From Candidatus Omnitrophota bacterium (lineage in GTDB: Bacteria > Ratteibacteria > UBA8468 > MWAK01), in assembly GCA_043797665.1 (NCBI GenBank), contig JAZDPL010000038.1, forward strand, positions 26,940 through 90,939: a stretch of 64,000 nt of DNA, read 5' to 3'. Shown piece by piece: positions 5,911 through 60,829 of the stretch. Positions within the stretch are counted from its first letter, which is position 1. The number at the start of each line of letters is the position of its first letter. The notes below the pieces were generated by a model that was not told where the DNA came from, searched no databases, and saw only the letters and a program-made list of their open reading frames with translations. Position numbers and translations under genes: made by a program.

Positions 5911-5960
5911 GTAGGGGTTTGATTTATCAAACCCGCGGGTCGGATAAATCCGACCCCTAC
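5911..5960. repeat. Family-A palindromic repeat element, copy 2 (inverted orientation)
   Basis: Sequence gtaggggtttgatttatcaaacccgcgggtcggataaatccgacccctac. It is the reverse-complement arrangement of the two hairpins seen at 20749. Confidence 0.7.
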
Positions 5961-5969
5961 AACCTCCTG

Positions 5970-20748: not shown

Positions 20749-20798
20749 GTAGGGGTCGGATTTATCCGACCCGCGGGCTTGATAAATCAAGCCCCTAC
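20749..20798. repeat. Family-A palindromic repeat element, copy 3
   Basis: Sequence gtaggggtcggatttatccgacccgcgggcttgataaatcaagcccctac. It shares a 26-nt upstream extension (atacaaacgaattaaataatttgac) with the copy at 39497-39608. Confidence 0.7.
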
Positions 20799-30807: not shown

Positions 30808-31690
30808 AAGATACGACTGCTTTCATTTGCCAGGTCTTCCCTGGATTTAGAACGTAAGGCTGGCACATAAACTCCAGGGTGGGAATTTCGTTAACGCTAA
30901 TATTGGTATACTCCTGTAAAAGTTTTTCATAGGTGGGTTTAACGAAAAAAGCCGTTTTTGTTTTTTTACTATAAAGGATAAAATTTCCCTCTTTAATTGT
31001 TTCCGCCAAACGATACTCTTTTTCAAACTTTTCATTACCATGAGTATAAGGGGCATTCTCAACGGGAAAAACAAGGTTTTCTTTTTCCGGGGGCAAGGTT
31101 AAAAGTTGAATTATTATTTCTTTTGTGCCCGGTAATATTAAAGCATACTCCGAACCAAAGTCAAGCCAATTGTGAAACCAGAACGAAAAATATCTCGGTT
31201 TTTTACCGCTGTTCTTAATGGTGTAATTAATTGTTATTTCTGGTTTGCTTCCTTGAATATAATAAGTTTTGATAATTGTCCAGCCTTCACTGGTAGAAGA
31301 ACCTATCTGAAAAGGAAAAACCTCAAATTTGCCCTCAAATTCAAGGGTTACCGTACCGCCTTTTATGCCCTTTTTTATTAATTTATAGGGAACTGATAGC
31401 GTCAACCGTCGTGGACTCCAAAGTGTGTCTTTGGCAATTCCGTGTCCCTTATCCGGGTAAAGTATATACTCTCTGTTATTGAACCTCCAGCCGACAATCT
31501 TTGCGGTGTCTGTGCGGTCAAAAACAATCTTCTGCCCTACGGTTTCTACAATAGTTTTGGTATCAAAAGGATCGGGATAAACCTTTATTCCTTCGGGAAA
31601 TAGAACGGATGGAAATAGAAAAAGTAGGCATAAAAACCAAACAGGCATAAGAAATCTCCTTATTTTAAAAATTCTAATTTTCCCCATCAT
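30749..31690 (-). CDS. Secreted hypothetical protein
   Basis: 313-aa ORF with an N-terminal signal-like segment (MPVWFLCLLFLFPSVLF). Confidence 0.4.
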   Translation of the reverse strand: MMGKIRIFKIRRFLMPVWFLCLLFLFPSVLFPEGIKVYPDPFDTKTIVETVGQKIVFDRTDTAKIVGWRFNNREYILYPDKGHGIAKDTLWSPRRLTLSVPYKLIKKGIKGGTVTLEFEGKFEVFPFQIGSSTSEGWTIIKTYYIQGSKPEITINYTIKNSGKKPRYFSFWFHNWLDFGSEYALILPGTKEIIIQLLTLPPEKENLVFPVENAPYTHGNEKFEKEYRLAETIKEGNFILYSKKTKTAFFVKPTYEKLLQEYTNISVNEIPTLEFMCQPYVLNPGKTWQMKAVVSFEENVSEEDLPGRVAKVIP

Positions 31691-31708
31691 AAATGTTTCT
31701 CCTTTTGC

Positions 31709-34594
31709 CTATTCCAGTAATTTACCGACCAAGCCGGCTTTTTTGGCGGCAAAACTGCCGTCCGGTCTTTGGTACATATAAAGATAAGTAGTATCGGGAA
31801 ATCTACCGTAGTACGTGTATTCTTTATCCCAGAGACGGAAGAGCAGAAGAATCGCATCCTGAACCGCATCGTGGTCTTTGCCCCCTACGTAAAGAATTTC
31901 CGACTGGTTAGTATCCTTGGTCACAATAATTGACCCTTCTCCTTCGTATCTGAGATTCCATTTGCCAGAAAGGATATTTTTATTGTTGATATCGACTATA
32001 ATCATGTTGTCGCTAACCGGAGATTCCCGGTCAGTCTTTACCGGGATATCCATCTTCACGTAAGGAGTCAGTGTCTCACAGTAATACCGGAAATAATCTT
32101 GAATACGTAAGACCAATCTTTCTGATTCTTTATCATTAGCCGGATATACAATAGTACAGTTAGGGCTTTTTTTATCCTTCATCGCGGGGAAATTTAATAC
32201 CTCTTTTTCCGGGGACAAAAAGGTTTTTGAACGTTGAATAACAACGATTTTGTTTTCTCCGGCAACTAAATTAGCTTTAAACAAAATACCGTTTTCTTTT
32301 TGAACGTAATCTTTTATCGGTTTTTCGTTTAGCATAACAGAGAAAACTTTTTTATTTTCCTCCAACCTTGCCACCATCTGGGTGGAAAAAGCTTCAGATA
32401 CTTTCAAGGAAATCTGGGTGGTTGATTGATAGGCATCATCGGTCTGGCTGGCGGATACCACTGATTTCCCTTTTGGAGTAAAACCAATCTGTGCCCGGAA
32501 AATAGCCGGAGTTCGGCCGGGAATAACTACTTTGGAAATTATGGTATAAGTACTGTCCAATTCTTGCTCAGTTTTTTCGCCGGTATGATACACAAAAACA
32601 TAACTGAAATCACCCAAAAAACGATTCTCTATGGTAATGTTACTGGTAATAGGCTCATCATCCGGATTTCCCAGGCACAATATACTTTTAACATCCTTTC
32701 CGTAGCGAGACAGCCAAATCTTATCATTGGCTTTTACCGGCACCAATGGTTCCCACCCGGTGGTAACTGTATCTAACAGTACCGGCATATACTTAAAGAA
32801 CCGGGGAACACCGCTAAGAAAATTGTGCGGTGGAATGCCCCCAAGATAAAAACTGGAGAGGAGAACATTATCCCGGGCGATTAAAAAAGCCTCTTTAATC
32901 TCTTCCGGACTCAATGACTCCCAGTCTACGAGGTTATCGACGCTATAATCACGCCACCACGAAATACTCTTACGTCCACTGAAATACCGGGAGGATTCGA
33001 CACATTCCGGGCCGTAATAAGGAGGATTTTCGTAAATTGCTGCGTCAGCACGAAACGAAGCCGGAAAGACACCCCAATCAAAATTACCGATGACACCCAG
33101 GGTGTATTTCCCTTTGTTATTCTTAAGGGTATGAGCATAGTCCATTATGTTAGCAATGGCGATTGCAGTATCAACGTAGGCTCCTTTTTCATCAAACGCT
33201 CTCCCCTTACATTTATCCAGTGCCGGCCCGCGATACTTACCGATATCATTGGCGGTATCGCAAGACCAGCCGTAAAGGTCTACCTCTTCCGCAACCTTTC
33301 TCATCCCTTCCTTCAAAAACTTTTCGTATTCCGTCTGGTACGCAAACACTTTATATTCATTATCGCTTCCAGTTACCCAGGGTTGATTGTATACGGTCAC
33401 CACATCCGGGTCCATCTCCGGCGTAATCAGGGAATCTGGAAATTTTTCATTAACTAATTGCTGTTCACACCATGGTATCGCGATATAAAAACAATTGGCT
33501 ACCTCGCCATCAAGAAACGCAAACCGTTCTTTCCGAAAAGCGTGGAATTTTTCCCAGGAAAAAGAAGTCGCTTTAAAAATCTCCACCGGCCTGGCAGGAG
33601 TGAAATCCCAGAGGTCTTTCTCTCCGTAAATATCACCGGAACGTTTGAATGGAGCATATGCCCAAGCCCAAGCGCCGTACAGCCTTCTTACATACTCTAA
33701 ACGTACGGGGTGGTCGTAGCCGTAGTCAGCCCGGCCGCTGGCCCAAGTAACATTACATATTGAGCCTAAGTTAATCTTGGGATTAATATCCTTTAGGGGA
33801 GAAAAGTATTCCGGAAAGATATCGTAATATTTCTGCAGTCCGGCTTTAAATCCTCCGTATTCCGGTTCAAAATTATAGAGAACAAAAGTAACCGAATCTT
33901 TAACTTTATTATCCACCACCATTCTGGTTCCGTAGCGAATCTGAAAAGACCCAGGTTCCAGGGGAGTAATGCTATTTTCCAGGTAACTTAAAAGGTCATA
34001 AGCAGCATTACCCACGGCAATGCCTGATTTTCTTGAATAGACACAAGCCATCGGGAAGGTGCCAACCCATTTATTCCGGATATGTTGGGCTCCCGGTGAT
34101 TTGACAACTGAATTCCCATCCCAGTACGTATATTCTTTATCTCCAAAAGAGGAGGCCAATTGCATCCCCAATTCCAACAAAATGGCCTTATTCTTTCCAC
34201 CCATTTCAGGTTTAACTTTCCAGGTAATGTAGTCCGGATAAACGGTGATGCTGTGGTCGGCTTTTATGCACCCGGTCTTATCCGCCCATTTAAATAAAAG
34301 CGTATTGCCTTTCTGTTGGAAAGCAGAAAGACTCCCTCCGCTCAGGTCTTCTTTTTCCTTATTGTTAAAAAAGGTAATAAGACCTTTTCCCTCTCGTAAG
34401 ATTGAACCCTTAAGATTATCCTTAAATTTAAACGTGCCGTCTGCCTTATTTAAGGAAAAAGAAAGTGCTTTTGTCTCAATTAAATAGCAACCTTTATCTT
34501 CTTTAATATCTGCCAGCGACACCCGGCAAAATATCAAAAGAAAAATAAACGTAAAGACACACTGACTCCATGTAATTCTTTTTCGTGATACCAT
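31709..34594 (-). CDS. Large secreted hypothetical protein, possibly glycan-active (961 aa)
   Basis: N-terminal signal peptide (FTFIFLLIFCRVSLA). Long uninterrupted ORF in a cluster with a sugar-type regulator and transporter. No motif I can name confidently. Confidence 0.45.
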   Translation of the reverse strand: MVSRKRITWSQCVFTFIFLLIFCRVSLADIKEDKGCYLIETKALSFSLNKADGTFKFKDNLKGSILREGKGLITFFNNKEKEDLSGGSLSAFQQKGNTLLFKWADKTGCIKADHSITVYPDYITWKVKPEMGGKNKAILLELGMQLASSFGDKEYTYWDGNSVVKSPGAQHIRNKWVGTFPMACVYSRKSGIAVGNAAYDLLSYLENSITPLEPGSFQIRYGTRMVVDNKVKDSVTFVLYNFEPEYGGFKAGLQKYYDIFPEYFSPLKDINPKINLGSICNVTWASGRADYGYDHPVRLEYVRRLYGAWAWAYAPFKRSGDIYGEKDLWDFTPARPVEIFKATSFSWEKFHAFRKERFAFLDGEVANCFYIAIPWCEQQLVNEKFPDSLITPEMDPDVVTVYNQPWVTGSDNEYKVFAYQTEYEKFLKEGMRKVAEEVDLYGWSCDTANDIGKYRGPALDKCKGRAFDEKGAYVDTAIAIANIMDYAHTLKNNKGKYTLGVIGNFDWGVFPASFRADAAIYENPPYYGPECVESSRYFSGRKSISWWRDYSVDNLVDWESLSPEEIKEAFLIARDNVLLSSFYLGGIPPHNFLSGVPRFFKYMPVLLDTVTTGWEPLVPVKANDKIWLSRYGKDVKSILCLGNPDDEPITSNITIENRFLGDFSYVFVYHTGEKTEQELDSTYTIISKVVIPGRTPAIFRAQIGFTPKGKSVVSASQTDDAYQSTTQISLKVSEAFSTQMVARLEENKKVFSVMLNEKPIKDYVQKENGILFKANLVAGENKIVVIQRSKTFLSPEKEVLNFPAMKDKKSPNCTIVYPANDKESERLVLRIQDYFRYYCETLTPYVKMDIPVKTDRESPVSDNMIIVDINNKNILSGKWNLRYEGEGSIIVTKDTNQSEILYVGGKDHDAVQDAILLLFRLWDKEYTYYGRFPDTTYLYMYQRPDGSFAAKKAGLVGKLLE

Positions 34595-39492: not shown

Positions 39493-39522
39493 ACCTAATA
39501 CAAACGAATTAAATATTTTGAC

Positions 39523-39608
39523 GTAGGGGTCGGATTTATCCGACCCGCGGGCCCCGTATAGGCGGCTATCGCCTTTTACGGGGCGGGCTTGATAAATCAA
39601 GCCCCTAC
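39523..39608. repeat. Family-A palindromic repeat element, copy 4 (with extra internal 34-nt hairpin)
   Basis: Sequence gtaggggtcggatttatccgacccgcgggc-[ccccgtataggcggctatcgccttttacgggg]-cgggcttgataaatcaagcccctac. It carries the same upstream extension as copy 3. Confidence 0.7.
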
Positions 39609-39616
39609 AAGTTATG

Positions 39617-40486
39617 CTACTTCTGGCAATGAGCGCAGAAGTACGTGGAACGGCTCCCGTCTTTTTTTACCATAATCGGATTTTTACAAATTCGGCAGGG
39701 CTTGTCCTTACGACCATAGACAAAGAGCTTTTCCTGAAATGTACCGTCCCGGCCGTCCGGTTTGACATAGTCCTGAATTGAAGTCCCGCCGGCAGAAAGC
39801 GCTTCCTTCAGTACCGATTGAATCGCCTGATAGAGAAGTTTCTGTTCACCTTCGGTAAGCGAACAGACTCTCCGGTCAGGATGAATCTTTGCCCGAAACA
39901 ACGCTTCGCTGGCGTAGATGTTACCCAGACCGGCGATTACGGCCTGGTCCAGAAGGAACGGTTTAATTCTGGTTTTCCTGTCCTGTAAAATCTTCTGCCA
40001 GCAGGAAAAAGTAAATTCGGCAGAAAGGGGTTCCGGTCCAAGTTTCAGGTCCGGCTCCGGGTCTTTATCCAGGAGAGAGAAACCGCCGAAACGCCTTATG
40101 TCCTGGTAATAAAGGACAGAGTTATCGGTAAAGAAAAAAGCGAGATGGTAATTGTCAACAGGATAAATCCCCCTCAGTCCCCCTTTGCCCATCCGAGGGC
40201 AAGGGGACCCGCCTTTTTTAAAGGGGGAAGAGGGAAAATAAATCAACCGGCCGGAAAGTTTCAGATGGACCAGAAGATAACCGGAAGGAATCAGATTAAA
40301 TATGAGATATTTACCGCGGCGCCGGATATCACCAATCTTTTTGCCGGATAATTCATGACAAAATTCTTTGGGTGATGGCTTTTTGACCAGGTTTAATACC
40401 TTCACCTCAACCCGGCTAACCTTCCTGCCGATGATTTTTTTCCGTAGTTGTTGCCGGATAGTTTCAACTTCAGGGAGTTCAGGCAT
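39617..40486 (-). CDS. mutM: Formamidopyrimidine-DNA glycosylase (Fpg/MutM)
   Basis: N-terminal MPELPEVE with catalytic Pro2/Glu3, H2TH region, and C-terminal zinc finger CRICKNPI...CAHCQ. Contains an in-frame family-B element at 40166-40240. Confidence 0.75.
   Translation of the reverse strand: MPELPEVETIRQQLRKKIIGRKVSRVEVKVLNLVKKPSPKEFCHELSGKKIGDIRRRGKYLIFNLIPSGYLLVHLKLSGRLIYFPSSPFKKGGSPCPRMGKGGLRGIYPVDNYHLAFFFTDNSVLYYQDIRRFGGFSLLDKDPEPDLKLGPEPLSAEFTFSCWQKILQDRKTRIKPFLLDQAVIAGLGNIYASEALFRAKIHPDRRVCSLTEGEQKLLYQAIQSVLKEALSAGGTSIQDYVKPDGRDGTFQEKLFVYGRKDKPCRICKNPIMVKKDGSRSTYFCAHCQK
40166..40240. repeat. Family-B GC-rich hairpin element inserted in frame in mutM
   Basis: Sequence aaatccccctcagtccccctttgcccatccgagggcaaggggacccgccttttttt. 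It encodes ...SPFKKGGSPCPRMGKGGLRG... inside Fpg and is a close relative of the 40966-41032 and 25600-25680 copies. Confidence 0.6.
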
Positions 40487-40953: not shown

Positions 40954-41847
40954 CTAATCCCTCTTCTTCCCCCTTTGCAAAAGGCGGGTCCCCTTCCCGT
41001 TGAATCGGGAAAGGGGGATTGAGGGGGATTTCATGGCTTCGGCTACCAGCAAGGCTTGCTTTACTTCTTTGACATCATGTACCCGAAAGATATTCGCACC
41101 GCCAAAGTAGGTCACCACTACCGCGGCAATCGTCCCGGCCATCCTTTCGGAAACCGGAGAACCGGTGATTTCACCGATAAATTTCTTCCGGGATAGACCA
41201 ACCATAACCGGACGGGAAAGGACACTGAATTCTCCAATTTTATTCAGGATGGTAAGGTTATGTCCGGTGCTCTTTCCAAAACCGATACCCGGGTCAACTA
41301 CAATCTGCTCCTCAGAAACACCGTTATCCAAAGCAATTCTTACCCTTTCTTCCAGAAACCGGGAGATTTCTTCAATTACGTCCTGATAGACCGGTCTATT
41401 TTGCATCGTGGCAGGTGTGCCCTGCATATGCATTAAAACTACTCCGCAGCCGGTTTCACCAGCCAGTTTCAAAATTCGGGTATCCTTTCCCGCGGTAATG
41501 TCGTTAATAATGTGCGCGCCTCTTTCCAGTACTGCTCTGGCTACCTCATATTTATAGGTGTCTACGGAAACAGGTATCTTTATTTTAGGAATAAGATTCT
41601 CCAGGACCGGCAGCAACCTTTTCTTCTCCTCTTCCACACTTACGGTCTGACTGCCTGGCCGGGTGGATTCTCCGCCTAAATCGATAATGTCCGCACCCTC
41701 AGCCTCCATCCGGAAAGCCCGGTCAACCGCCTTCTCTTTTTCTAAATAGGCTCCTCCTTCGGAAAAGGAGTCCGGCGTCAGGTTAAGGATACCCATAACC
41801 CTGGGCCGGGTACAGTCAATCTTCTTTCCGCGTACTAACCAGACCAT
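40954..41847 (-). CDS. folP: Dihydropteroate synthase FolP (C-terminal tail encoded by a repeat element)
   Basis: Pterin-binding TIM barrel (GILNLTPDSFSEGG, VDTYKYEVA). The last ~25 codons (SIPLSRFNGKGTRLLQRGKKRD) are encoded by the family-B element. Confidence 0.75.
   Translation of the reverse strand: MVWLVRGKKIDCTRPRVMGILNLTPDSFSEGGAYLEKEKAVDRAFRMEAEGADIIDLGGESTRPGSQTVSVEEEKKRLLPVLENLIPKIKIPVSVDTYKYEVARAVLERGAHIINDITAGKDTRILKLAGETGCGVVLMHMQGTPATMQNRPVYQDVIEEISRFLEERVRIALDNGVSEEQIVVDPGIGFGKSTGHNLTILNKIGEFSVLSRPVMVGLSRKKFIGEITGSPVSERMAGTIAAVVVTYFGGANIFRVHDVKEVKQALLVAEAMKSPSIPLSRFNGKGTRLLQRGKKRD
40966..41032. repeat. Family-B GC-rich hairpin element at the folP 3' end
   Basis: Sequence ccctttgcaaaaggcgggtccccttcccgttgaatcgggaaagggggattgagggggatttc. 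It shares the 22-mer core with the copies at 25658 and 40170 (reverse complement). Confidence 0.65.
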
Positions 41848-45432: not shown

Positions 45433-45483
45433 TCTCTTCGAATCCCCTTTAGCCATATCAAGTAGTAGCGGCGTGGGGATTCG
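45433..45483. repeat. 51-bp direct repeat duplicating the 3' end of tRNA-Met plus 33 nt of downstream sequence (second copy at 45561-45611)
   Basis: The string tctcttcgaatcccctttagccatatcaagtagtagcggcgtggggattcg is identical at both loci. The distal copy overlaps tRNA positions 45594-45611. Confidence 0.75.
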
Positions 45484-45593
45484 GCGCCCTCGGCTTTCAC
45501 TACGCCTCAGGTCGGCCATTCGCTAATAACGCTCTTATTCATCGCGTTATCTGACTTCGCTCTCTTCGAATCCCCTTTAGCCATATCAAGTAG

Positions 45594-45666
45594 TAGCGGC
45601 GTGGGGATTCGAACCCCAGACATAGCGGGTATGAGCCGCTTGCTCTACCAGCTGAGCTACACCGCC
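45594..45666 (-). tRNA. tRNA-Met (anticodon CAT)
   Basis: Reverse complement ggcggtgtagctcagctggtagagcaagcggctcataCCCGCtatgtctggggttcgaatccccacgccgcta. It folds as a cloverleaf with a D-arm, a CTCATAC anticodon loop and a TTCGAAT T-loop; G1.U72 and U6.G67 are wobble pairs. CCA is not encoded. Confidence 0.7.
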
Positions 45667-45791: not shown

Positions 45792-47033
45792 ATGCGCCCA
45801 AAAAGATACTGGATATATTTATTCCCCGGTTTGGTTGATTTCTCGCTGGCTTCTTTTTCCTTCTTTGTCGCGGTCAAAGCGACCCAGTTAGGCGTTTCCC
45901 CGATTACCATAGGAGGAATCGGTTCCGTCTGGGGAACAACCTACTTCGCCTCAAGTCTTATCTTGTCAAAATTGGCGAAGAAGGAGAACGTGTATCGTCT
46001 GATGATGACAGGTTGTCTCTTGTTTATATTGCTCACCATAGGTTTTGCCCTTTTCAATTCCCTACCATTCCTTTTTATTCTTACGGCCCTGACCGGAATA
46101 ACCACCGCTCTCTTCTTTATCGGTTTCCAGGTATTCATGGGCGAACAAAACAATATGCCGCTCCATAAAGGAATCGCTTTCTATACCCTTGCCTGGAGTT
46201 CCGGCATAGCTTTCGGTTCCCTGGTCCAGGGAATCCTGCTCTCCTGGGGGCCTTTTATTTCTCTCCTGCCGGTATTCCTCAGTTTTATCGCAGTTATCTT
46301 CGGTTTGAAGTTGATAAAAAGGGGGACTGACAAATCAACAGATTTCCCAAATGTAGGGGGCGGATTTATCCGACCCGCGGGCTTGATGAATCAAGCCCCT
46401 ACAGTTCGGATTAATAGGGGTATAAAAGATATAAATTCCTGCGGGTTCCAGGAAGACCCGGTAAACGACCGCATTAAAACGGCCTACGTCTATGTAGGAT
46501 GGATGAGTATCTTTACGGCTACCGCGATCAGAATGGGGATAGGTTTTCTGCTCCCCAACCTGACGATGACCCTTTTTGGATTTTCTTCGGCTCTGGCTGG
46601 CCTGGCAATATTTATCAGTCTGATGGCCCAGGCTCTGGCCGGCTTTTCAATGATGAAACTTCCCGCCTGGCGCTACCGGCTTGCACCTCTTTTCTGGACG
46701 AAATTGATTGTGGTTATCGGATGTTTCCTCGCGGCCGCCTTCCCGGCAAAAATTACCATCTTCACCCTGACTATTCTGGTGGGTATCTATTCCGGACACG
46801 CCTACTACAACGGCGTATTTTATGCCCTTAACCAGCGGGACAAAAGCGGCCGGAACGTCGGTATAAACGAAGCCCTGGTGGGTGTCGCCAGCATTGTGGG
46901 ACCGCTTACCTTTGGAATCTGTCTCCAGGCAGGGGTACCCTGGTTTATGATGGCGCCGGCGATATTTGTCCTCATCACCTTTGTGGCTCAAGCAATACTC
47001 TTGAAACTGCGGTTATCGGGCTCAATAAATTGA
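45792..47033 (+). CDS. MFS-type transporter carrying an in-frame family-A repeat insertion
   Basis: 12-TM topology over 413 aa. The segment 46331-46402 encodes ...FPNVGGGFIRPAGLMNQAPTV... from the repeat element. Confidence 0.55.
   Translation: MRPKRYWIYLFPGLVDFSLASFSFFVAVKATQLGVSPITIGGIGSVWGTTYFASSLILSKLAKKENVYRLMMTGCLLFILLTIGFALFNSLPFLFILTALTGITTALFFIGFQVFMGEQNNMPLHKGIAFYTLAWSSGIAFGSLVQGILLSWGPFISLLPVFLSFIAVIFGLKLIKRGTDKSTDFPNVGGGFIRPAGLMNQAPTVRINRGIKDINSCGFQEDPVNDRIKTAYVYVGWMSIFTATAIRMGIGFLLPNLTMTLFGFSSALAGLAIFISLMAQALAGFSMMKLPAWRYRLAPLFWTKLIVVIGCFLAAAFPAKITIFTLTILVGIYSGHAYYNGVFYALNQRDKSGRNVGINEALVGVASIVGPLTFGICLQAGVPWFMMAPAIFVLITFVAQAILLKLRLSGSIN
46331..46402. repeat. Family-A palindromic repeat element, copy 5 (inside coding sequence)
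   Basis: Sequence caaatcaacagatttcccaaatgtagggggcggatttatccgacccgcgggcttgatgaatcaagcccctac. The upstream 22 nt are shared with copy 6. Confidence 0.7.
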
Positions 47034-54115: not shown

Positions 54116-54990
54116 TGGCAGAGAATTTGAAACTGAAATTTGCGGGAATCAATTTACGGAATCCGGTGGTCCTTCTTTCCGGAACCGCAGGTTACGGAAA
54201 GGAACTGAACGACATCATCGACCTCTCTCGGATAGGTGCGCTCATATCCAAAACGATTACCGAAAAACCAAGGGTGGGAAACCCGCCGCCCCGAACCGCA
54301 GAAACTCCGGCCGGACTGCTCAACTCAATCGGACTGGAAAATCCGGGTTTGGAAGAGTTTATCAAGGAAGCGGTCCCGTTTATCAAAAGACTGCCCCTGC
54401 CGGTACTGGTCAGTATTGCGGGAAACGAAAAACAGATTACCCGAATGGGAAAAAGATTAGAAGATGCCGGAATGGCTGCCTTGGAAGTAAACCTGTCCTG
54501 TCCCAACGTTTCAGGAGAATTCAGACCTGCCTCTCCCCGGGAGATAAAAAGACTGGTAAGTCATATCAGGAAAGCGGTTAAAATCCCTTTTTTAACCAAA
54601 CTACCTCCGGACCTGTTTCGAATACAGGCTCTGGTAAAGGCGGCCGAGGAAGGTGGTACCAGCGGACTTACCATTGCCAATACTTTTCCCGCAATGACCT
54701 TTGACGTAAAGAAACGCAAACCACTACTGGGAGGGATAACCGGCGGACTATCCGGACCGGCAATTTTGCCTCTGAGCCTTTATCTGGTCTTCAAGGCGCG
54801 TGGTGTAACCAAACTTCCCATCCTGGGCTCCGGGGGGATTTACAACGGTACAGGGGCAGTATCAATGCTTCTGGCCGGTGCCGATGCGGTGGGATTGGGA
54901 ACGGTCACTTTCTACCAGCCGGACGCGTACCGGGAAATATTAAAATCCATCGCCGAATTTAGGGGCCACAGGAAAAACCAAACTAAATGA
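54115..54990 (+). CDS. pyrD: Dihydroorotate dehydrogenase catalytic subunit PyrD (class 1B)
   Basis: MAENLKLKFAGINLRNPVVLLSGTAGYG and the FMN-binding TIM barrel. The track's upstream extension from 53959 overlaps pyrK and is rejected. Confidence 0.75.
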   Translation: MAENLKLKFAGINLRNPVVLLSGTAGYGKELNDIIDLSRIGALISKTITEKPRVGNPPPRTAETPAGLLNSIGLENPGLEEFIKEAVPFIKRLPLPVLVSIAGNEKQITRMGKRLEDAGMAALEVNLSCPNVSGEFRPASPREIKRLVSHIRKAVKIPFLTKLPPDLFRIQALVKAAEEGGTSGLTIANTFPAMTFDVKKRKPLLGGITGGLSGPAILPLSLYLVFKARGVTKLPILGSGGIYNGTGAVSMLLAGADAVGLGTVTFYQPDAYREILKSIAEFRGHRKNQTK

Positions 54991-56798
54991 GACAGGGGTT
55001 CTTTCTGCTGTTTGTACTCTTTTTCGCTGTCCGACCATTCATTGACGGATTAACCTATCCCCTGACCCAGTACCTTTTTCAGTTGGTCATCATTGCCGGG
55101 GCATTAATCTATTCGACTGCCATATTATCCGGGAAAGTCCGGTATCGTCCCACCGGTCTGGAACTGCCGGGTTTTCTTTTTATTCTGGTTACCGGAATCA
55201 GCACCGTCTTTTCCTGTTCACCCTACCGGAGTTGTATTGTCTTCTTACAGTACCTATACTACTTTTCACTTTTTTTTCTCGTAAACCAGAGCCTGGCTAC
55301 CGAAATCCCGGTCAAGTCAACAAATCCCCCAAATGTAGGGGTCGGATTCATCCGCCCCGCGGGCTTGATGAATCAAACCCCTACAACGGTTCTGGTTGCG
55401 GTGCTCCTGACCACCGGTGCCCTGATAAGCCTTTATGGAATCCAGCAGTATCTCTGGGGTCTGAAAGATACCCTTAACTATCTGACAGAAAAAGGAATGG
55501 TCAACACTTTCCCTCCGGAATTTTTAGCCCGAATTTACTCCAATCGGGCATTCGCTACTTTTGTCTACCCTAATATCTTCGCGGCGTTTTTAATCGCTTT
55601 AATCCCGGTTGCTGCCTTTTCGTTGTTCCCCGGCCGATTCAAAGCGCCGGCTGATAGACTGAAGACCGTCGCGGGACTTCTTTTCCTGTGCCTTTTTGGC
55701 GTTACTCTTATGATGACGAGATCCGGCGGCGGCATTATGACCTTGATGGTGGTCTCTCTCATCTGCCTGAGCAGTCTCTGGGCATCCAAAATCGTTCCGG
55801 CAAAAAAAAAGTATCTACCGTTTCTTATTCTTATCGGGGGTTTTATTCTTATCTTCTGGGGTCTGACAACCCTGAAAATAGTACCGCACGACAAAGTCGT
55901 TTCTCTGACCGACCGGTTCTTTTACTGGCGGAGTTCTCTAAATATTACCCGCGAACGGCCTCTTCTGGGATTCGGTCCGGGAAGTTTCGGAGTTCACTAT
56001 GCCCGGTTTAAGTTACCCCGGGCAATGGAAACCCAACACAGTCACAGTACATTCTTCGAAATCCTGCCGGAAGAAGGGCTTTTGGGTGTCATTACCTTCT
56101 TCTGGTTCTGGACATTCCTTCTGATTAAAACCGGCAAGAAGAAACGAACCAACATTGAAAACGGCCTCTTCTGGGGAACGCTCGGACTATTCCTGCACAG
56201 TCAGTTCGACTTTGACCTTGCGGACCCGTCGCTGGCGACCTATCTTTTTGCTTTGCCGGCGTTGATTACTCTGACCGAGGGAAAGGAACACCCCTGGCCC
56301 CTCTCTAAGAGGGGAAGGGAACCCTCGGTAAAATTGACCCGAATCGGAACAGGAATTATAATATTAGTATTACTCTTTTCCGGAATAAGAACTATTAGAC
56401 TTTACCGTGCCGAAAAAATTTATCAACACGGATTGAACCTCTTCGCCAAGGGAGAAAACGGTTTGGAACTATTGGAACAAGCAGGATGTCTGGAACCCAA
56501 AAACCCAACGTACTGGGCTCAGTTAGGAAATATCTATTACCGGGCAGGCAAAGAATTGGGTGCCGTAAAAATTATGGAAAAAGCCGCTGATGCTTACCGT
56601 AATGCGGCGGATGCGGAACCTTACGCCGCTTCCTACCGGTTTCATTTAGGTTCGTCCGCAGAGGAGATTGCCCGAATGTCCGGTGACAAGCGGTGGGAAA
56701 GCGTAGCCAACGAGGCTTTTAAACAAGCGGTCTTACTCTATCCAACTAAAAAAGAGTATCAAAAAAAGGCGGAAAGATTGAGAGGGAACACCCCATGA
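54987..56798 (+). CDS. O-antigen ligase/polymerase-like (Wzy_C) membrane protein with C-terminal TPR repeats, carrying an in-frame family-A repeat insertion
   Basis: Multiple TM helices, a Wzy_C-like loop (LLGFGPGSFGVHY...HSHSTFFEIL), and a TPR-like C-terminus. The segment 55313-55384 encodes ...PPNVGVGFIRPAGLMNQTPTT... Confidence 0.55.
   Translation: MRQGFFLLFVLFFAVRPFIDGLTYPLTQYLFQLVIIAGALIYSTAILSGKVRYRPTGLELPGFLFILVTGISTVFSCSPYRSCIVFLQYLYYFSLFFLVNQSLATEIPVKSTNPPNVGVGFIRPAGLMNQTPTTVLVAVLLTTGALISLYGIQQYLWGLKDTLNYLTEKGMVNTFPPEFLARIYSNRAFATFVYPNIFAAFLIALIPVAAFSLFPGRFKAPADRLKTVAGLLFLCLFGVTLMMTRSGGGIMTLMVVSLICLSSLWASKIVPAKKKYLPFLILIGGFILIFWGLTTLKIVPHDKVVSLTDRFFYWRSSLNITRERPLLGFGPGSFGVHYARFKLPRAMETQHSHSTFFEILPEEGLLGVITFFWFWTFLLIKTGKKKRTNIENGLFWGTLGLFLHSQFDFDLADPSLATYLFALPALITLTEGKEHPWPLSKRGREPSVKLTRIGTGIIILVLLFSGIRTIRLYRAEKIYQHGLNLFAKGENGLELLEQAGCLEPKNPTYWAQLGNIYYRAGKELGAVKIMEKAADAYRNAADAEPYAASYRFHLGSSAEEIARMSGDKRWESVANEAFKQAVLLYPTKKEYQKKAERLRGNTP
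55313..55384. repeat. Family-A palindromic repeat element, copy 6 (inside coding sequence)
   Basis: Sequence caagtcaacaaatcccccaaatgtaggggtcggattcatccgccccgcgggcttgatgaatcaaacccctac. Confidence 0.7.
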
Positions 56799-57496
56799 AA
56801 TATGCAAAATTGCGGATCCGGCGTCTGGATAAAGTGGAGATTTTTATCATCCCGGACGAAGTGGCAGTGACCACCGGCGATTACGTCATTATTGAATCTG
56901 AGAAAAGTGGCTCGGACCACGGCATAATACTTTCGGTTTATCCGGAATCCCCGCCGGGAATTGACGCCGCAGGTCTGCCTCATGTCATTAGAAAAGTAAC
57001 CCCGGAAGACATCACCCAGATTGAGGGGAATTATCGCCACGACGAAGAGGCTTTCCGGATCTGTTCGGAAAAGATTACCGAAAAAGGAATCTCCAAGATG
57101 AAACTCCTGGATGCCGAGTATTCGTTCAACCGCACGGTGGTTACCTTTTACTACTTTGCGGAAGAACGCATTGATTTCCGGGAATTAGTGCGGGAATTAG
57201 CTAAGATTTTTAATTGCCGCATTGAGATGCGACAGGTAGGCCGCCGGGATGAAGCCCGGATGATGGGCGGGGTTGGAATATGCGGCCGTCAATTATGCTG
57301 TTCCCTGTTTTTACAGGAATTCAAGCCCATCGCCATGCGTATGGTAAAGGAACAGAACCTTCCCCTGGACCCGGCTAAAGTCTCCGGTCTCTGCGGCCGG
57401 CTGATGTGCTGTCTCGCTTACGAAAGTTCCTGTCCGTTAGTAGCCGGCGGTCCTGCAATCAAAAAAGAAGAACGGGAAAAAAACGAAGAGGTCTGA
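56795..57496 (+). CDS. PSP1 C-terminal domain protein (YaaT/RicT-like)
   Basis: Conserved Cys-rich PSP1 segment (GICGRQLCCSLFLQEF...CGRLMCCLAYE). Confidence 0.65.
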   Translation: MKYAKLRIRRLDKVEIFIIPDEVAVTTGDYVIIESEKSGSDHGIILSVYPESPPGIDAAGLPHVIRKVTPEDITQIEGNYRHDEEAFRICSEKITEKGISKMKLLDAEYSFNRTVVTFYYFAEERIDFRELVRELAKIFNCRIEMRQVGRRDEARMMGGVGICGRQLCCSLFLQEFKPIAMRMVKEQNLPLDPAKVSGLCGRLMCCLAYESSCPLVAGGPAIKKEEREKNEEV

Positions 57497-58983
57497 TGGA
57501 AAAGTACTACCTCACCACCCCAATTTACTACGTCAACGCCCGGCCGCATATCGGTCATGTCTACACCACGGTCGCAGCAGATGCGCTTGCCCGCTGGGAA
57601 AGATTTTTAGGCAAAGAGGTCTTCTTCCTTACCGGCACCGACGAACACGGCAGTAAAATTGCCGCCTCGGCAGACGAGTCCGGCATCACCCCGAAAGAAT
57701 TAGCGGACTCAATGGTTCAGCACTACCGGGATTTATGGGAGATTCTTGAGGTCAGGTTTGACCGGCTCATCCGCACCACGGAACCGGAACATGAAAAGAT
57801 TGTTCAAACAACATTTCTCACCCTCTACCGGAAAGGAGATATCTATCCCGGTACTTACCAGGGTTACTACTGCATCTCCTGCGAAAACTACCTTACCCCG
57901 GCCGAAGGGAAGGTTTGTCCGGACTGCGGAAGAACGGTGGACCAGATTTCGGAATCTACCTACTTTTTCCGCCTCTCCCGGTACCAGGAAGCACTGAAAG
58001 AATACTTCCGGAACCATCCCGAATTTATTCAGCCTCCCCAGATTAAAGATGAAATCAATAACATGCTCACCCTTCCCCTGCCGGACCTGTCTCTCACCCG
58101 GCGCTGCGATTGGGGAGTCCCCCTGCCCGCCGAAATTATCTCAAAGGAGCCCCTGTCAATATACGTCTGGTTTGACGCCTTGCTCAACTATCTTTCCGGA
58201 GTGGGTGGGCCGGACGGAACCCATTATAAAAAATTCTGGCCTCCGGACGTTCACATCATCGGCAAAGACATAATCCGGTTCCATCACATTATCTGGCCGG
58301 CTATTTTAATGGCGCTGGAACTGCCGCTGCCGAAAAAAATCTTTGCTCACGGCTGGTGGCTCTCCGGCGGAGAAAAGATGAGCAAGTCCCGCGGAAACGT
58401 GGTAGAGCCCTTTGGATTCTGTCAACAATATGGTTCAGAATCTTTACGGTATTTCCTCTTAGCGGAAGTCCCTTTCGGCCTGGACGGCGATTTCACCGAA
58501 ACCTCCTTTAAAAAAAGGTACAACAGCGATTTGGCGAACGATTTGGGCAACCTGATTCACCGGTTCAACCATCTTATCCGAACCAACTCCGGAGGCAAGG
58601 TCCCCCGACCGGGGGACGGCGGTACTATGGCAGAAAAAACCCTGAACATCTTCCCGGAGTTAATTCAAAAGATGGAAAATTTAGACTTTTACGGCTTTCT
58701 GGGAAAGGTGCGCCAGGTAGTAGCCTCCGCCAACAAATATCTTGACGAACAGGCACCATGGCGCCAGGGGCAGAATGCGGAAGAAGTCCTCTATAACCTT
58801 ACCGAGGTAAGCCGAATCTTAAGCCTTTACCTTAAACCGGTTCTGCCCAGGACGGCCGAGCTGATTCGCGGGCAATTGGGCCTTTCTGATTTACCGGAAA
58901 CAAAGGATGCGGTAAGGTGGGGATTAACGCCGGCGGGAGCAGACGTCAGCAAGGCTCCCCCGCTCTTCCCCAGAATTAAATGA
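57496..58983 (+). CDS. metG: Methionine--tRNA ligase (short form)
   Basis: HIGH-type PHIGHVYT, KMSKS, and Zn-knuckle CISCENY...CPDCG. The track's upstream extension (57406) is rejected in favour of MEKYYLTTPIYYVNA. Confidence 0.85.
   Translation: MEKYYLTTPIYYVNARPHIGHVYTTVAADALARWERFLGKEVFFLTGTDEHGSKIAASADESGITPKELADSMVQHYRDLWEILEVRFDRLIRTTEPEHEKIVQTTFLTLYRKGDIYPGTYQGYYCISCENYLTPAEGKVCPDCGRTVDQISESTYFFRLSRYQEALKEYFRNHPEFIQPPQIKDEINNMLTLPLPDLSLTRRCDWGVPLPAEIISKEPLSIYVWFDALLNYLSGVGGPDGTHYKKFWPPDVHIIGKDIIRFHHIIWPAILMALELPLPKKIFAHGWWLSGGEKMSKSRGNVVEPFGFCQQYGSESLRYFLLAEVPFGLDGDFTETSFKKRYNSDLANDLGNLIHRFNHLIRTNSGGKVPRPGDGGTMAEKTLNIFPELIQKMENLDFYGFLGKVRQVVASANKYLDEQAPWRQGQNAEEVLYNLTEVSRILSLYLKPVLPRTAELIRGQLGLSDLPETKDAVRWGLTPAGADVSKAPPLFPRIK
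58879..58983. repeat. Left copy of a 105-bp imperfect direct repeat (3' end of metG); right copy at 60432-60536
   Basis: Left: ggcctttctgatttaccggaaacaaaggatgcggtaaggtggggattaacgccggcgggagcagacgtcagcaaggctcccccgctcttccccagaattaaatga. Right: ggtctttctggtttaccgg...aacaccggcggg...cccccactcttccccagaattaaataa. About 5 mismatches. Confidence 0.8.
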
Positions 58984-60410
58984 ATATGAATATTGACCGT
59001 ATAAGAACAATCTTAAAAAATAAAGAGGCATTGCATGTTGAGTTTAAGGAATCTATTGGGGGTGTGCCAAAATCTTTGTATGAGACTATTTGTGCATTTT
59101 TAAATAGAGAAGGTGGAGATATATTTCTTGGCGTAGATAATAAAGGCGGAATAAAAGGATTAAATAATCACAGCATAAAAAAAATTACGGCTGATATAGT
59201 ATCAACTACAAATAATGCTGGAAAGTTAAATCCTCCTTTTCTGCTTTTCCCGAAACAAATAGAGATTGAAGGGGAAAACATTTTACAAATCCAAGTGCCG
59301 GAAAGTTCAAGAGTTCACACCTTAAATGGAATAGTGTATGACAGAAGTGCCGATGGCGATTTTAAGGTTAAACACCCGGAGCAGATTGCGGCTATTTCAA
59401 ACAGAAAAAGTGGATATTATTCTGAATCCAGAGTTTATCCTTACCTGACCATTAGTGATTTTGACAAATCCACTCTGAGAAAGGCCAGGAATCTAATCAG
59501 CAGTCAAGAGCCTGTACATCCATGGTTAGGTTTTGATACAAAAGGGATGCTCTTAAAAGCGGGCCTTTATCAAAAGGATTTTTTAACCGGGAAAAGCGGA
59601 TATACTCTTGCGGCAGTTCTTTTGTTTGGAAAAGAAGAATCAATCCAGGGGATTATTCCCCATTACAAAATTGATGCATTGGTTAAAAAGAAAAACACGG
59701 ACCGATATGATGACCGGGTTGATATACGGGTAAATCTTATAGAATCTTATGGAATATTGATGTCATTTATAGAAAAACATCTGCCTGACCCGTTTTATCT
59801 TGAAGGAGCGATAAGAATCAGTTTAAGAGAAAAAATATTCAGAGAAATAGTAGCCAATCTTCTCGTACACAGAGAATATACCATTGCTTTACCCTCCCGG
59901 TTAGTTATATATTCTGACAGGGTGGAAGTGACAAATCCCTGTATCCCGCATAAAAAAGGAGTGTTGACTGTTGAAAACTGTACTCCATTTCAAAAGAATC
60001 CTTTGGTTTCAAAATTTTTCACACAACTTGGATTGGTAGAAGAGATTGGTTCAGGTATAATAAATGTGAATAAATATCTCCCGCTATATCTTCCCAATGG
60101 TAAAGCAGAATTTATTGAAGATAATATTTTTAAAACAGTAATTAAATTGCCTGAATTATTACAAATATCTACCCCCCAAGCTACCCCCCAAGCTACCCCC
60201 CAAGTTGTTATAGGAGTGAGAAATGAAAAGATTGTTGAATTTTGTAAAATTCCACGGAAAAGGGAAGAAATACAAATATATATAGGAATTAAAAATAGGA
60301 AATATTTCCGAAATGAAATAATGATACCGCTTCTGAAGGTCGGAAGGATTAAGTTGACAATTCCGGAAAAGCCAAATAGTCCAAAACAAAAGTATCGATC
60401 TGTTATGTAA
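58980..60410 (+). CDS. AlbA_2/Schlafen-like putative DNA-binding domain protein with C-terminal HATPase/HTH-like region
   Basis: N-terminal EALHVEFKESIGGVPKSLYETICAFLNREGGDIFLGVDNKGGIKG is typical of the AlbA_2 'divergent AAA/putative DNA-binding' domain. The gene is AT-rich, and its start overlaps the metG stop. Confidence 0.55.
   Translation: MNMNIDRIRTILKNKEALHVEFKESIGGVPKSLYETICAFLNREGGDIFLGVDNKGGIKGLNNHSIKKITADIVSTTNNAGKLNPPFLLFPKQIEIEGENILQIQVPESSRVHTLNGIVYDRSADGDFKVKHPEQIAAISNRKSGYYSESRVYPYLTISDFDKSTLRKARNLISSQEPVHPWLGFDTKGMLLKAGLYQKDFLTGKSGYTLAAVLLFGKEESIQGIIPHYKIDALVKKKNTDRYDDRVDIRVNLIESYGILMSFIEKHLPDPFYLEGAIRISLREKIFREIVANLLVHREYTIALPSRLVIYSDRVEVTNPCIPHKKGVLTVENCTPFQKNPLVSKFFTQLGLVEEIGSGIINVNKYLPLYLPNGKAEFIEDNIFKTVIKLPELLQISTPQATPQATPQVVIGVRNEKIVEFCKIPRKREEIQIYIGIKNRKYFRNEIMIPLLKVGRIKLTIPEKPNSPKQKYRSVM
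60171..60206 (+). repeat. 12-bp tandem repeat x3 (accccccaagct) encoding (QATP)3 linker
   Basis: Sequence accccccaagct accccccaagct accccccaagtt, inside the AlbA_2-like gene. Confidence 0.7.
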
Positions 60411-60431
60411 GAATAGCAACAATATCTATTA

Positions 60432-60536
60432 GGTCTTTCTGGTTTACCGGAAACAAAGGATGCGGTAAGGTGGGGATTAACACCGGCGGGAGCAGACGTC
60501 AGCAAGGCTCCCCCACTCTTCCCCAGAATTAAATAA
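60432..60536. repeat. Right copy of the metG 3'-end direct repeat (would encode the last 33 aa of MetG)
   Basis: See 58879-58983. It sits 22 nt after the AlbA_2-like gene stop. Confidence 0.8.
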
Positions 60537-60607: not shown

Positions 60608-60829
60608 ATGCAGAATCTTTTAGAAGAACTTAAAAAACTTTTAGAGCAGGACGAACGATTAGTTGTTGATGGTAAACTCTTGAAGAACAAAATAATTGAA
60701 TCGGCTCTTAAACTTGATGCAAAAATCAAAGAATACGAATGCCAGGTTGACCGGATGATTTATAAACTATACGATTTAACAAAAGAAGAAATTGCTATCG
60801 TGGAGCAGTTTGGAATGAAGGATAAATAA
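60608..60829 (+). pseudogene. Probable gene fragment: C-terminal remnant of a restriction-modification (Type IIG/PglX/HsdS-like) protein
   Basis: The 73-aa ORF ends ...DRMIYKLYDLTKEEIAIVEQFG. The 'LYgLTeEEIxIVE' terminal motif is characteristic of C-termini of many R-M MTase/specificity proteins. Too short to be a full protein. Confidence 0.3.

What the first reader, a model, noticed from the sequence alone, without database searches (positions are those of the whole stretch)
58879..60536. 1.55-kb insertion carrying an AlbA_2/Schlafen-like gene, flanked by a 105-bp duplication of the metG 3' end
The last 105 bp of metG are repeated (about 95% identity) immediately after an AT-rich single-gene cargo, so that the distal copy would encode the final 33 residues of MetG. 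This is the footprint expected from site-specific integration into the 3' end of a gene (an att-site duplication reconstituting the target). However, no integrase is present, so either the recombinase acted in trans, the element is a decayed remnant, or the cargo was captured by another mechanism. AlbA_2/Schlafen-like ATPase-associated DNA-binding proteins are frequent in defence islands.
Basis: seen in the sequence. Interest (0 to 1): 0.55.

Follow-up and report, generated by a model that had tools for sequence, protein, structure and literature searches.

The report
Schlafen defence gene inserted after metG
A horizontally acquired Schlafen-type anti-phage gene is inserted exactly at the end of the essential gene metG, flanked by a 107-bp copy of that gene's tail and with no recombinase in sight: a real but fairly ordinary scar of gene gain in a small defence-gene hotspot.

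Summary
The sequence at 58875-58981 recurs at 60428-60534 (102/107 identical, spacing 1553). Between the copies lies one AT-rich gene (35% GC; host about 52%).

The insertion is real. Two close relatives (about 91% nt identity) lack the gene and the duplication. One of them (L097) keeps the next gene (ORF6N/PDC-S05). The other (L001) has metG followed directly by pyrH.

The cargo is a prokaryotic Schlafen: PF04326 + HATPase_c_4 + winged HTH, with an intact ExxxxExK motif. It is 91% nt-identical to a gene in Elusimicrobia. That homology stops 1 nt before the ATG and 6-14 nt after the stop.

The left junction is a 3-nt microhomology (AAT). It turns the metG stop TAA into TGA, overlapping the new ATG.

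I found no recombinase, inverted repeats or structured site. None of 81 related metG loci reuses this site.

My best reading (confidence 0.5) is microhomology-mediated host recombination in a metG|pyrH defence hotspot that also holds decayed gene remnants. A decayed or trans-mobilised integrase element (0.25) and a single-crossover integration (0.12) remain possible.

Interest is low to moderate.

The parts
57496..58983 (+). metG (methionyl-tRNA synthetase, 495 aa), intact. Its stop codon TGA (58981-58983) is created by the junction.
   Evidence: Pfam tRNA-synt_1g, E=4e-108. 92% nt identical to L097 metG.
58875..58981 (+). Proximal copy of the 107-nt repeat: the functional last 35 codons of metG.
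   Evidence: It has three derived changes relative to L097/L001, all synonymous.
58979..58981 (+). Left junction: 3-nt microhomology AAT shared by host (..ATTAAAT|AA) and donor (..GGTGAAT|GAATATG).
   Evidence: DNA homology to L081, L091 and L147 starts at 58979. The 43-nt leader that those three share is absent here.
58980..60410 (+). Prokaryotic Schlafen gene (476 aa; alternative start 58986): Slfn/AlbA_2 nuclease + GHKL-like HATPase_c_4 + winged HTH. No promoter or SD of its own; the ATG overlaps the metG stop (ATGA).
   Evidence: Pfam. 90% aa and 91% nt identical to the Elusimicrobia gene P0002/L081. dN/dS 0.17. GC 0.352.
59028..59051 (+). Predicted Schlafen catalytic motif E-x4-E-x-K (EALHVEFK, residues 17-24).
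   Evidence: Read from the translation. The motif definition comes from PMC13056530.
60169..60204 (+). 12-nt x 3 perfect tandem repeat (TPQA linker) inside the Schlafen gene. Copy number varies among relatives.
   Evidence: L091 has about 9 copies.
60411..60427 (+). 17-nt spacer. The first 14 nt are donor 3' flank (they match L091); the last 3 nt (TCT) are of unknown origin. The right junction lies here.
60428..60536 (+). Distal copy of the repeat plus the original TAA stop: an orphaned, non-coding metG 3' end. It is in frame with the Schlafen ORF but lies behind two stop codons.
   Evidence: It has two derived changes, one of them non-synonymous.
60608..60829 (+). 73-aa ORF, a remnant of a type IIG restriction-methylase. 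Its C-terminal 34 residues match the extreme C-terminus of the IIG models.
   Evidence: PADLOC REase_MTase_IIG, E=1e-6, model positions 1113-1146 of 1148. The same tail remnant occurs in L091, L092 and L147.
60850..61755 (+). ORF6N-domain gene (301 aa), a PADLOC defence candidate PDC-S05. It is an older insertion shared with L097. Its stop codon abuts the pyrH RBS.
   Evidence: Pfam ORF6N, E=4e-33. PDC-S05, E=5e-66. Right junction identical to L097, and dS 0.30 equals that of host genes.
61766..62479 (+). pyrH (UMP kinase), the downstream core gene of the hotspot.
   Evidence: Pfam AA_kinase. Synteny in L001, L002, L073 and L097.

Best explanation
A promoter-less prokaryotic Schlafen (pSlfn) defence gene of foreign, low-GC origin was joined to the end of metG. 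The site is a small defence-gene hotspot between the core genes metG and pyrH.

I infer that host illegitimate (microhomology-mediated) recombination made the joins, not a resident site-specific recombinase. One join links the metG stop region to the first base before the pSlfn ATG through a 3-nt AAT overlap. The other links a point 14-17 nt past the pSlfn stop to metG position -107. Because the two host breakpoints are staggered, 107 bp of target were duplicated. metG therefore stays intact, and its old tail remains as a non-coding relic.

The left join may be primary. Alternatively it may be a later microhomology deletion that trimmed a larger insert.

The gene is now read with the metG-pyrH operon (no + strand terminator) and is probably translated by ATGA stop/start coupling. 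It is a fixed remnant rather than an active mobile element, although RecA recombination between the repeats (39-bp perfect block) could delete it.

Shown: the repeat, the insertion polarity, the foreign origin, the flush boundaries, the microhomology, and the absence of a recombinase in the window. Inferred: the recombination pathway, the expression mode, and the anti-phage tRNase function.
For: - Repeat and spacing.
- Empty or intermediate sites: L097 (metG - GajA-like remnant - ORF6N - pyrH, with no pSlfn and no duplication) and L001 (metG - 20 nt - pyrH). The tree is ((L097,L001),window).
- Foreign origin: GC 0.35 against 0.52; 91% nt identity to an Elusimicrobia gene, confined to 58979-60416.
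- The 43-nt leader shared by three other contexts (L081, L091, L147) is missing here, so the junction lies at AAT.
- No flanking repeats around the gene in L081 or L091. Only 1 of 50 other homologue loci has any flanking duplication.
- No tyrosine or serine recombinase-like ORF in 64 kb. Pfam of the neighbouring genes and the synteny list show none.
- The repeat does not fold better than shuffles. No terminal inverted repeats.
- 0 of 81 related metG loci duplicate their own metG 3' end.
- The hotspot shows deletional decay elsewhere: a IIG remnant and a GajA-like remnant in L097.
- No + strand terminator between 57300 and 62000.
Against: - A long direct repeat that rebuilds the 3' end of a conserved gene is the classical signature of integrase-mediated insertion.
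- The proximal copy carries 3 synonymous changes in about 26 synonymous sites, whereas the supposedly neutral distal copy has only 2 changes in 107 nt. The binomial p is about 0.05 (and my arithmetic). This hints that the proximal tail came from another allele, or that the distal copy is constrained. Neither is predicted by a simple in-situ duplication.
- A junction that lands exactly on a stop and a start codon is improbable for random joining, unless selection or later trimming is invoked.
- The donor sequence beyond +14 nt is unknown, so microhomology at the right junction cannot be checked.
- Only one assembly (a MAG) shows the arrangement.
Confidence: 0.5

Rival explanations
1. Site-specific integration. 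An element whose attP carried the last ~107 bp of metG integrated by a tyrosine or serine integrase, giving attL and attR. The integrase either acted in trans (a CIME-like, non-autonomous cassette) or sat in a left-hand part of the element that a microhomology deletion later removed, leaving pSlfn flush with metG.
For: Direct repeats rebuild the target gene's 3' end, and the repeat ends exactly at the stop codon. The proximal copy has an excess of synonymous differences, as expected if the tail was supplied by an element from another lineage. Large internal deletions have clearly occurred in this hotspot. In the relative L091/L100, the same gene is the last gene of a defence island, and two independent assemblies break right after it, as they would at a repeat. 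From my own knowledge: e14 and phage 21 in E. coli icd leave a similar duplicated 3' end with silent differences.
Against: No recombinase-like ORF in the 64-kb window. The site is not reused in 81 related metG loci. The 20-23-mer is absent from viral and JGI metagenome contigs. The left-to-right order of derived differences (P, P, D, P, D) fits no single crossover point. Foreign homology leaves at most 3 nt between the pSlfn 3' flank and the repeat, so any lost element part must have been entirely to the left. The same gene elsewhere has no att-like flanks.
Confidence: 0.25
2. Campbell-type single crossover. A circular DNA (a plasmid, an imprecisely excised element, or a circularised fragment from a sibling strain) already carried pSlfn next to a captured metG 3' fragment. 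It integrated by RecA-dependent homologous recombination, which duplicated the homologous segment.
For: In E. coli conjugation experiments, single crossovers of a circular molecule produced duplications of 109-950 bp flanking the inserted DNA, and they far outnumbered true HFIR events (PMC3240628). The repeats keep perfect blocks of 39 and 32 bp, long enough for RecA pairing. The model explains allelic (synonymous) differences between copies without needing an integrase.
Against: It only moves the problem back. An earlier illegitimate event is still needed to put pSlfn flush against metG and to close the circle at -107. A 1.55-kb circle has no replication function. No such molecule, and no second arrangement, was found in any collection.
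Confidence: 0.12
3. Assembly artefact. The arrangement is a chimeric path through strain variants in a metagenome-assembled contig, not a real chromosome.
For: The arrangement is known from one MAG contig only: P0001, P0121 and P0241 have no other exact carriers. The closest relatives come from fragmented assemblies.
Against: The host/foreign junctions share only 3 nt, so a de Bruijn graph cannot join them without reads that span them. The two copies differ at 5 positions and each is linked to distinct flanks. The gene is full length, under purifying selection, and in frame-precise coupling with metG.
Confidence: 0.05

Closest known systems
Prokaryotic Schlafen (pSlfn) anti-phage nucleases, HisKinase-HTH architecture (PMC13056530)
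   Same: It matches PF04326, has an intact Ex4(E/D)xK motif (EALHVEFK), and is fused to a GHKL/His-kinase-like ATPase and an HTH. That is the second most common pSlfn architecture (19.2%). It has defence neighbours.
   Different: This class was not among the two systems shown experimentally to defend. Here the gene has no promoter of its own and is embedded in a housekeeping operon. There is only a weak match to any PADLOC v2 model.
Integrase-mediated insertion into the 3' end of a protein gene (e14 / phage 21 in E. coli icd; from my own knowledge, not checked here)
   Same: There is a long direct duplication of the target gene's last codons. The functional copy differs by silent changes. An orphan pseudo-3' end sits at the far side.
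   Different: There is no integrase, no other phage or island genes, only 1.45 kb of cargo, and foreign homology flush with a single ORF.
CIME (cis-mobilisable elements flanked by att sites of ICESt1/ICESt3-type ICEs; from my own knowledge)
   Same: It is flanked by direct repeats and lacks recombination and transfer genes.
   Different: No cognate ICE or integrase using a metG att site was found. The site is not reused in relatives.
Illegitimate / homology-facilitated illegitimate recombination, and single-crossover integration of foreign DNA (PMC3240628; de Vries & Wackernagel 2002 as cited in PMC2884548)
   Same: It shows a junction at a 3-nt microhomology, no dedicated recombinase, and a duplication of about 100 bp of recipient DNA flanking foreign DNA.
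   Different: Those are laboratory events with known substrates. Here the donor molecule and the second junction cannot be reconstructed.
Defence-gene hotspots between conserved core genes
   Same: Three close genomes carry different contents between the same two core genes: nothing; a GajA-like remnant + ORF6N; or pSlfn + IIG remnant + ORF6N. Decayed defence genes are present.
   Different: It is very small (0-2.8 kb), sits inside a tightly coupled housekeeping operon, and occurs in an uncultivated Omnitrophota lineage.

Membership tests
Integrase-mobilised genomic island / prophage remnant | Direct repeats flank the element, one of them being the 3' end of the target gene | tested here: met
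   107 nt, 95% identical: 58875-58981 and 60428-60534.
Integrase-mobilised genomic island / prophage remnant | A tyrosine or serine recombinase gene lies within or next to the element | tested here: not met
   Pfam of all flanking ORFs shows none. phmmer with XerD, Hin and lambda Int against 199 ORF segments of the window gave no hit at E<=10.
Integrase-mobilised genomic island / prophage remnant | The same att site is used repeatedly in related genomes | tested here: not met
   0 of 81 related metG loci have a second copy of their own metG 3' 150 nt. There were no matches of the site in the viral or JGI metagenome contigs.
Integrase-mobilised genomic island / prophage remnant | Excision to a circle and restoration of the empty site | not testable with these tools
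   This needs reads or PCR.
CIME-like non-autonomous att-flanked cassette | A cognate autonomous element with the same att site exists | tested here: inconclusive
   None was found in the window or the collections searched. The rest of the genome was not available.
Transposon / IS with target-site duplication | Terminal inverted repeats and a transposase; a short TSD of fixed length | tested here: not met
   No inverted repeats at the ends. The only ORF is the Schlafen gene. A 107-nt duplication is far longer than known TSDs (my own knowledge).
Integron gene cassette | A structured attC site downstream of a promoter-less ORF, with IntI/attI nearby | tested here: not met
   The sequence after the ORF is a copy of metG. 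Its fold has z-scores of -1.8 to +0.25 against shuffles. No integrase was found.
Prokaryotic Schlafen (pSlfn) defence nuclease | Full-length PF04326 domain | tested here: met
   SLFN_AlbA_2, E=1.6e-16, residues 16-127, profile positions 1-114 of 118.
Prokaryotic Schlafen (pSlfn) defence nuclease | Conserved Ex4(E/D)xK active-site motif | tested here: met
   EALHVEFK at residues 17-24. The motif is as defined in PMC13056530. It is also present in L081 (ETLHVEFK).
Prokaryotic Schlafen (pSlfn) defence nuclease | Fusion to a putative sensor module (HisKinase-like +/- HTH) | tested here: met
   HATPase_c_4 at 308-365 and the Fic-like_C winged HTH at 427-473.
Prokaryotic Schlafen (pSlfn) defence nuclease | Defence-gene neighbourhood | tested here: met
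   It is adjacent to a type IIG RM remnant and to PDC-S05. The 85% relative in L091 follows GmrSD and Gabija-like genes.
Prokaryotic Schlafen (pSlfn) defence nuclease | Phage-triggered tRNA cleavage / protection from phage | not testable with these tools
   Experimental.
PADLOC candidate PDC-S05 (the neighbouring ORF6N gene) | Match to the PDC-S05 profile over most of its length | tested here: met
   PDLC04869, E=5e-66, residues 3-261.

The most novel reading that the evidence does not exclude
The 1,553-bp unit (107-bp metG tail + one promoter-less ORF + 17 nt) is a minimal, recombinase-free integrative cassette. It pops out as a circle by recombination between its repeats. It re-enters any genome that has the metG tail, by an integrase supplied in trans or by RecA, and it plugs its cargo into the host operon by ATGA translational coupling. 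The mirror-image case in L104 would then be a second example of a general way in which single defence genes spread. In L104, a decayed hsdM 5' fragment lies upstream of a homologous Schlafen gene, and that gene's stop codon overlaps the start of an intact hsdM.
Probability: 0.08. Interest if true: 0.65.

Novelty: new member of a known kind. Interest (0 to 1): 0.3.

Why it matters
The locus is a clean, datable example of how a single defence gene enters a compact genome of an uncultivated phylum. Three stages of the same locus are preserved in close relatives. The gene moved across phyla at 91% nucleotide identity, and its insertion keeps an essential gene and its operon working.

It adds a natural case to the laboratory evidence that foreign DNA can be fixed with a ~100-bp target duplication and without a dedicated recombinase. 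It also warns against reading every gene-end duplication as an att site.

It does not open a new mechanism unless the cassette reading turns out to be true.

Tried and rejected
- Exact-protein look-ups of the window's own MetG, PyrH and Schlafen protein found nothing on record.
- A 20-23-mer of the repeat gave no hit in viral or JGI metagenome contigs.
- The Schlafen protein has no relative in viral contigs. On plasmids and phages it has only relatives of 40% identity or less, so no vector could be named.
- NCBIfam gave no name. PHROGs gave only generic 'helicase' and 'anti-repressor' labels.
- The integron-cassette idea is rejected: no structured site and no IntI.
- The transposon idea is rejected: no inverted repeats and no transposase.
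- Tandem accretion of two att-flanked elements is rejected. There is no third repeat copy at the pyrH side, and the ORF6N block has host-level divergence and the same junction in L097.
- I tested whether the flanking duplication is a hallmark of this gene family. Only 1 of 50 other loci (L104) shows anything similar, with 0 of 74 in a control.
- The second low-GC island (8.8-16.4 kb) was checked for the same duplication: none.
- Polarising the five repeat differences was meant to decide between an in-situ and an imported copy. The result is only marginal (p about 0.05).
- The N-terminal half of the 73-aa ORF could not be assigned.
Full report
**1. Observation**

- The last 107 nt of metG (58875-58981) recur at 60428-60534. 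They are 102/107 identical, with a start-to-start spacing of 1553 nt.
- A 39-nt core occurs exactly twice in the window, with none expected by chance.
- All five mismatches are transitions. The stop codon is TGA in the proximal copy and TAA in the distal copy.
- In the metG frame the distal copy encodes the last 35 residues with one change, D->G.
- Between the copies lie one ORF (58980-60410, 476 aa) and a 17-nt spacer.
- GC is 0.35 in the ORF and 0.52 in metG.
- The low-GC tract does not stop at the distal repeat. It continues to 61755 and holds a 73-aa ORF and a 301-aa ORF6N gene.

**2. Is it an insertion?** Yes.

- A genome scan with MetG found the source lineage, Omnitrophota/Ratteibacteria-like MAGs.
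- The 90% MetG cluster contains a Logan contig, L097, and the MAG contig L001.
- Over 3,261 aligned nt, L097 and L001 are 96.5% identical to each other. Each is 91% identical to the window, so the tree is ((L097,L001),window).
- L001 has metG-TAG, then 20 nt, then the pyrH ATG.
- L097 has metG-TAA, then 162 nt with a 46-aa ORF, then ORF6N, then pyrH. It has no Schlafen gene and no duplication.
- More distant relatives (L002 and L073, 70% MetG identity) also have metG followed by pyrH.
- The window and L097 share the same ORF6N/pyrH junction (GAGAATTGAGGATAAAATTATGG). That junction removes the last codon found in other ORF6N homologues.
- ORF6N dS between the window and L097 is 0.30. Host genes give the same range: metG 0.26, pyrH 0.30.
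- So the ORF6N block is old and vertically inherited. L001 lost it, or replaced it by recombination. The Schlafen gene plus the duplication arose later, in the window's lineage.

**3. The cargo**

- Pfam finds SLFN_AlbA_2 (residues 16-127), HATPase_c_4 (308-365) and the winged-helix Fic-like_C (427-473).
- Residues 17-24, EALHVEFK, fit the Ex4(E/D)xK active-site motif of prokaryotic Schlafen nucleases.
- The Slfn + HisKinase + HTH architecture is the second most common class, at 19.2% (PMC13056530). That paper shows that some pSlfn proteins defend E. coli by cleaving tRNA. This particular class was not among the two shown to be active.
- PADLOC v2 has only weak matches for this protein.

**4. 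Origin of the cargo**

- The closest homologue, P0002 (90% aa), sits in a 37-39% GC Elusimicrobia genome between a glyoxalase gene and a QRPTase (nadC-type) gene, in at least 24 assemblies.
- An 85% relative, frameshifted, ends a defence island holding GmrSD and Gabija-like genes (L091 and L100).
- At DNA level, window-to-L081 homology (91%) covers 58979-60416 only. Window-to-L091 homology runs to 60424, where that contig ends.
- L081, L091 and L147 share a 43-nt leader upstream of the ATG. The window lacks it.
- dN/dS against L081 is 0.17, so the gene has been under purifying selection.
- No close relative is on known plasmids, phages or viral contigs.

**5. Junctions**

- Left junction:
  - Host sequence: ...AGAATTAAAT|AA.
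  - Donor sequence: ...GGTGAAT|GAATATG.
  - Product: ...AGAATTAAATGAATATG.
  - The overlap is 3 nt, AAT (58979-58981).
  - The join changes the metG stop from TAA to TGA without changing MetG. It also puts the Schlafen ATG in an ATGA overlap with that stop.
- Right junction:
  - Fourteen nt of donor 3' flank are followed by TCT.
  - Host sequence then resumes from metG -107 (60428).
  - The donor sequence beyond +14 nt is unknown.
- Other features:
  - There are no inverted repeats at the ends.
  - The repeat does not fold better than shuffles.
  - There is no + strand terminator between 57300 and 62000.
  - There is no Shine-Dalgarno sequence before the ATG (read directly from the sequence).

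**6. Recombinase**

- No ORF of the hotspot or its flanks is a recombinase.
- The two other low-GC islands of the window hold no integrase either.
- None of 81 related metG loci has a second copy of its own metG tail.
- The site is absent from viral and JGI metagenome contigs.

**7. Is a flanking duplication typical for this gene family?** No.

- Among 51 loci with homologues, only the window (the positive control) and L104 gave a hit.
- A control using metG as the flanked gene gave 0 of 74 hits longer than 19 nt.
- L104 is a curious mirror image. A decayed hsdM 5' fragment lies upstream of the Schlafen gene. The Schlafen gene's stop overlaps the ATG of an intact hsdM.
- The L104 contig is too short to interpret.

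**8. The hotspot**

- The window's 73-aa ORF ends with the conserved C-terminal tail of type IIG restriction-methylases: PADLOC E=1e-6, model positions 1113-1146 of 1148.
- The same tail remnant lies in front of ORF6N in Desantisbacteria (L092). In L096, an intact split IIG-like enzyme precedes ORF6N.
- ORF6N matches the PADLOC candidate PDC-S05 (E=5e-66). It has more than 7,500 homologues, the listed best 120 of them at 69-100% identity and spread across phyla.
- L097's 46-aa ORF weakly resembles the GajA N-terminus (E=0.03).
- Three close genomes therefore carry three different contents, plus deletion remnants, between the same two core genes.

**9. Mechanism**

- Any recombinase-free history needs two illegitimate joins. 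The simplest history makes both on the chromosome, at staggered host positions, which creates the 107-bp duplication.
- The left join could instead be a later AAT-mediated deletion that trimmed a larger insert down to the essential gene's stop codon. This hotspot demonstrably decays by such deletions.
- In favour of imported DNA (integrase attP, or a single crossover):
  - With L097/L001 as outgroup, the proximal copy has 3 derived changes, all synonymous, in about 26 synonymous sites.
  - The non-coding distal copy has only 2 derived changes in 107 nt.
  - The binomial p is about 0.05 (and my arithmetic).
  - Against this, the left-to-right order of the derived changes (P, P, D, P, D) fits no single crossover point.
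- Single crossovers of circular DNA are known to give duplications of 109-950 bp (PMC3240628).
- My weights:
  - host illegitimate recombination: 0.5;
  - decayed or trans-acting integrase element: 0.25;
  - Campbell-type crossover: 0.12;
  - assembly artefact: 0.05.
- The artefact is unlikely because the junctions share only 3 nt and the two copies are distinguishable. However, only one assembly shows the arrangement.

**10. Consequences (inferred)**

- The Schlafen gene is probably transcribed from the metG operon and translated by termination-reinitiation.
- The repeats keep perfect blocks of 39 and 32 bp, so RecA could delete the gene and restore the ancestral locus.

**11. Verdict**

- This is a real insertion with a real target duplication.
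- The cargo is a plausible anti-phage Schlafen gene, sitting in a small defence hotspot.
- The att-site reading is not excluded, but it has no support beyond the repeat itself.
- It is a new member of known kinds and is of modest interest.

Noticed in passing
window 8774-16356: A second low-GC island (35-38% GC) lies between a PBP_like_2 binding-protein gene and its ABC permease. It holds a DrmD-like SNF2 helicase (PADLOC E=6e-187), two N6_Mtase/Eco57I methylases, DUF3800 and a 75-aa Zn-ribbon-like ORF. Both ends are ATGA stop/start overlaps with the host genes (8774-8777 and 16353-16356). There is no flanking duplication and no integrase.
   Followed up: partly
window 23-72, 5911-5961, 20749-20798, ~39513-39552, 46352-46402, 55334-55384: A dispersed palindromic element of about 50 nt (GTAGGGGTCGGATTTATCCGACCCGCGGGCTTGATGAATCAAGCCCCTAC), REP/MITE-like. 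One copy lies in frame inside the Wzy_C/TPR ORF (54987-56798).
   Followed up: no
window 45433-45483 and 45561-45611: A perfect 51-nt direct repeat. Its second copy overlaps the 3' end of tRNA-Met (45593-45666, minus strand). It is an att-like tRNA-end duplication with only 77 nt between the copies.
   Followed up: no
window 40165-40231 and 40965-41031: 67-nt inverted repeats (87% complementary) enclose 733 nt. This may be a small IS or MITE-like element.
   Followed up: no
window 23333-24500: An array of tandem repeats of about 170 nt (6-7 copies, 60-97% identical), presumably a repetitive coding region.
   Followed up: no
L104 1-66, 118-1608 and 1605 onward: A mirror-image architecture around a 54%-identical Schlafen homologue. 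A decayed, AT-biased copy of the hsdM 5' coding region lies upstream. The Schlafen stop codon overlaps the ATG of an intact hsdM (ATGA). The contig starts inside the upstream copy.
   Followed up: partly
window 60719-60829; L091 3728-3850; L092 58-134 and 2143-2270; L147 928-1020: Remnants of the conserved C-terminal tail of type IIG restriction-methylases (..VYKLYDLTxEEI..) recur between defence genes in unrelated genomes. In L147 the tail is fused to the first 80 nt of the Schlafen gene. These remnants might act as recombination anchors for swapping cassettes.
   Followed up: partly
window 60169-60204; L091 8849-8992; L081 9188-9225: A 12-nt tandem repeat encoding the TPQA linker of the Schlafen protein varies in copy number: 3 perfect copies here, about 9 in L091, and 3 imperfect copies in L081.
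   Followed up: no
L091 (end 9190) and L100 (end 5396): Two independent assemblies of the same defence island both break within 14 nt of the Schlafen gene's stop. This suggests a repeat or strain-variable junction there.
   Followed up: no
L001 3403-3430 vs L097 7131-8203: L001 and L097 are 96.5% identical, yet L001 has 8 nt (TATTTTTA) where L097 has a 1.07-kb GajA-remnant + ORF6N block. This is a recent loss or allele replacement at the hotspot.
   Followed up: partly
window 29455-34594 (minus strand): A third lower-GC stretch (39-42% GC) holds a 961-aa and a 313-aa ORF with no Pfam match, and a 450-aa CBM_4_9 protein.
   Followed up: no
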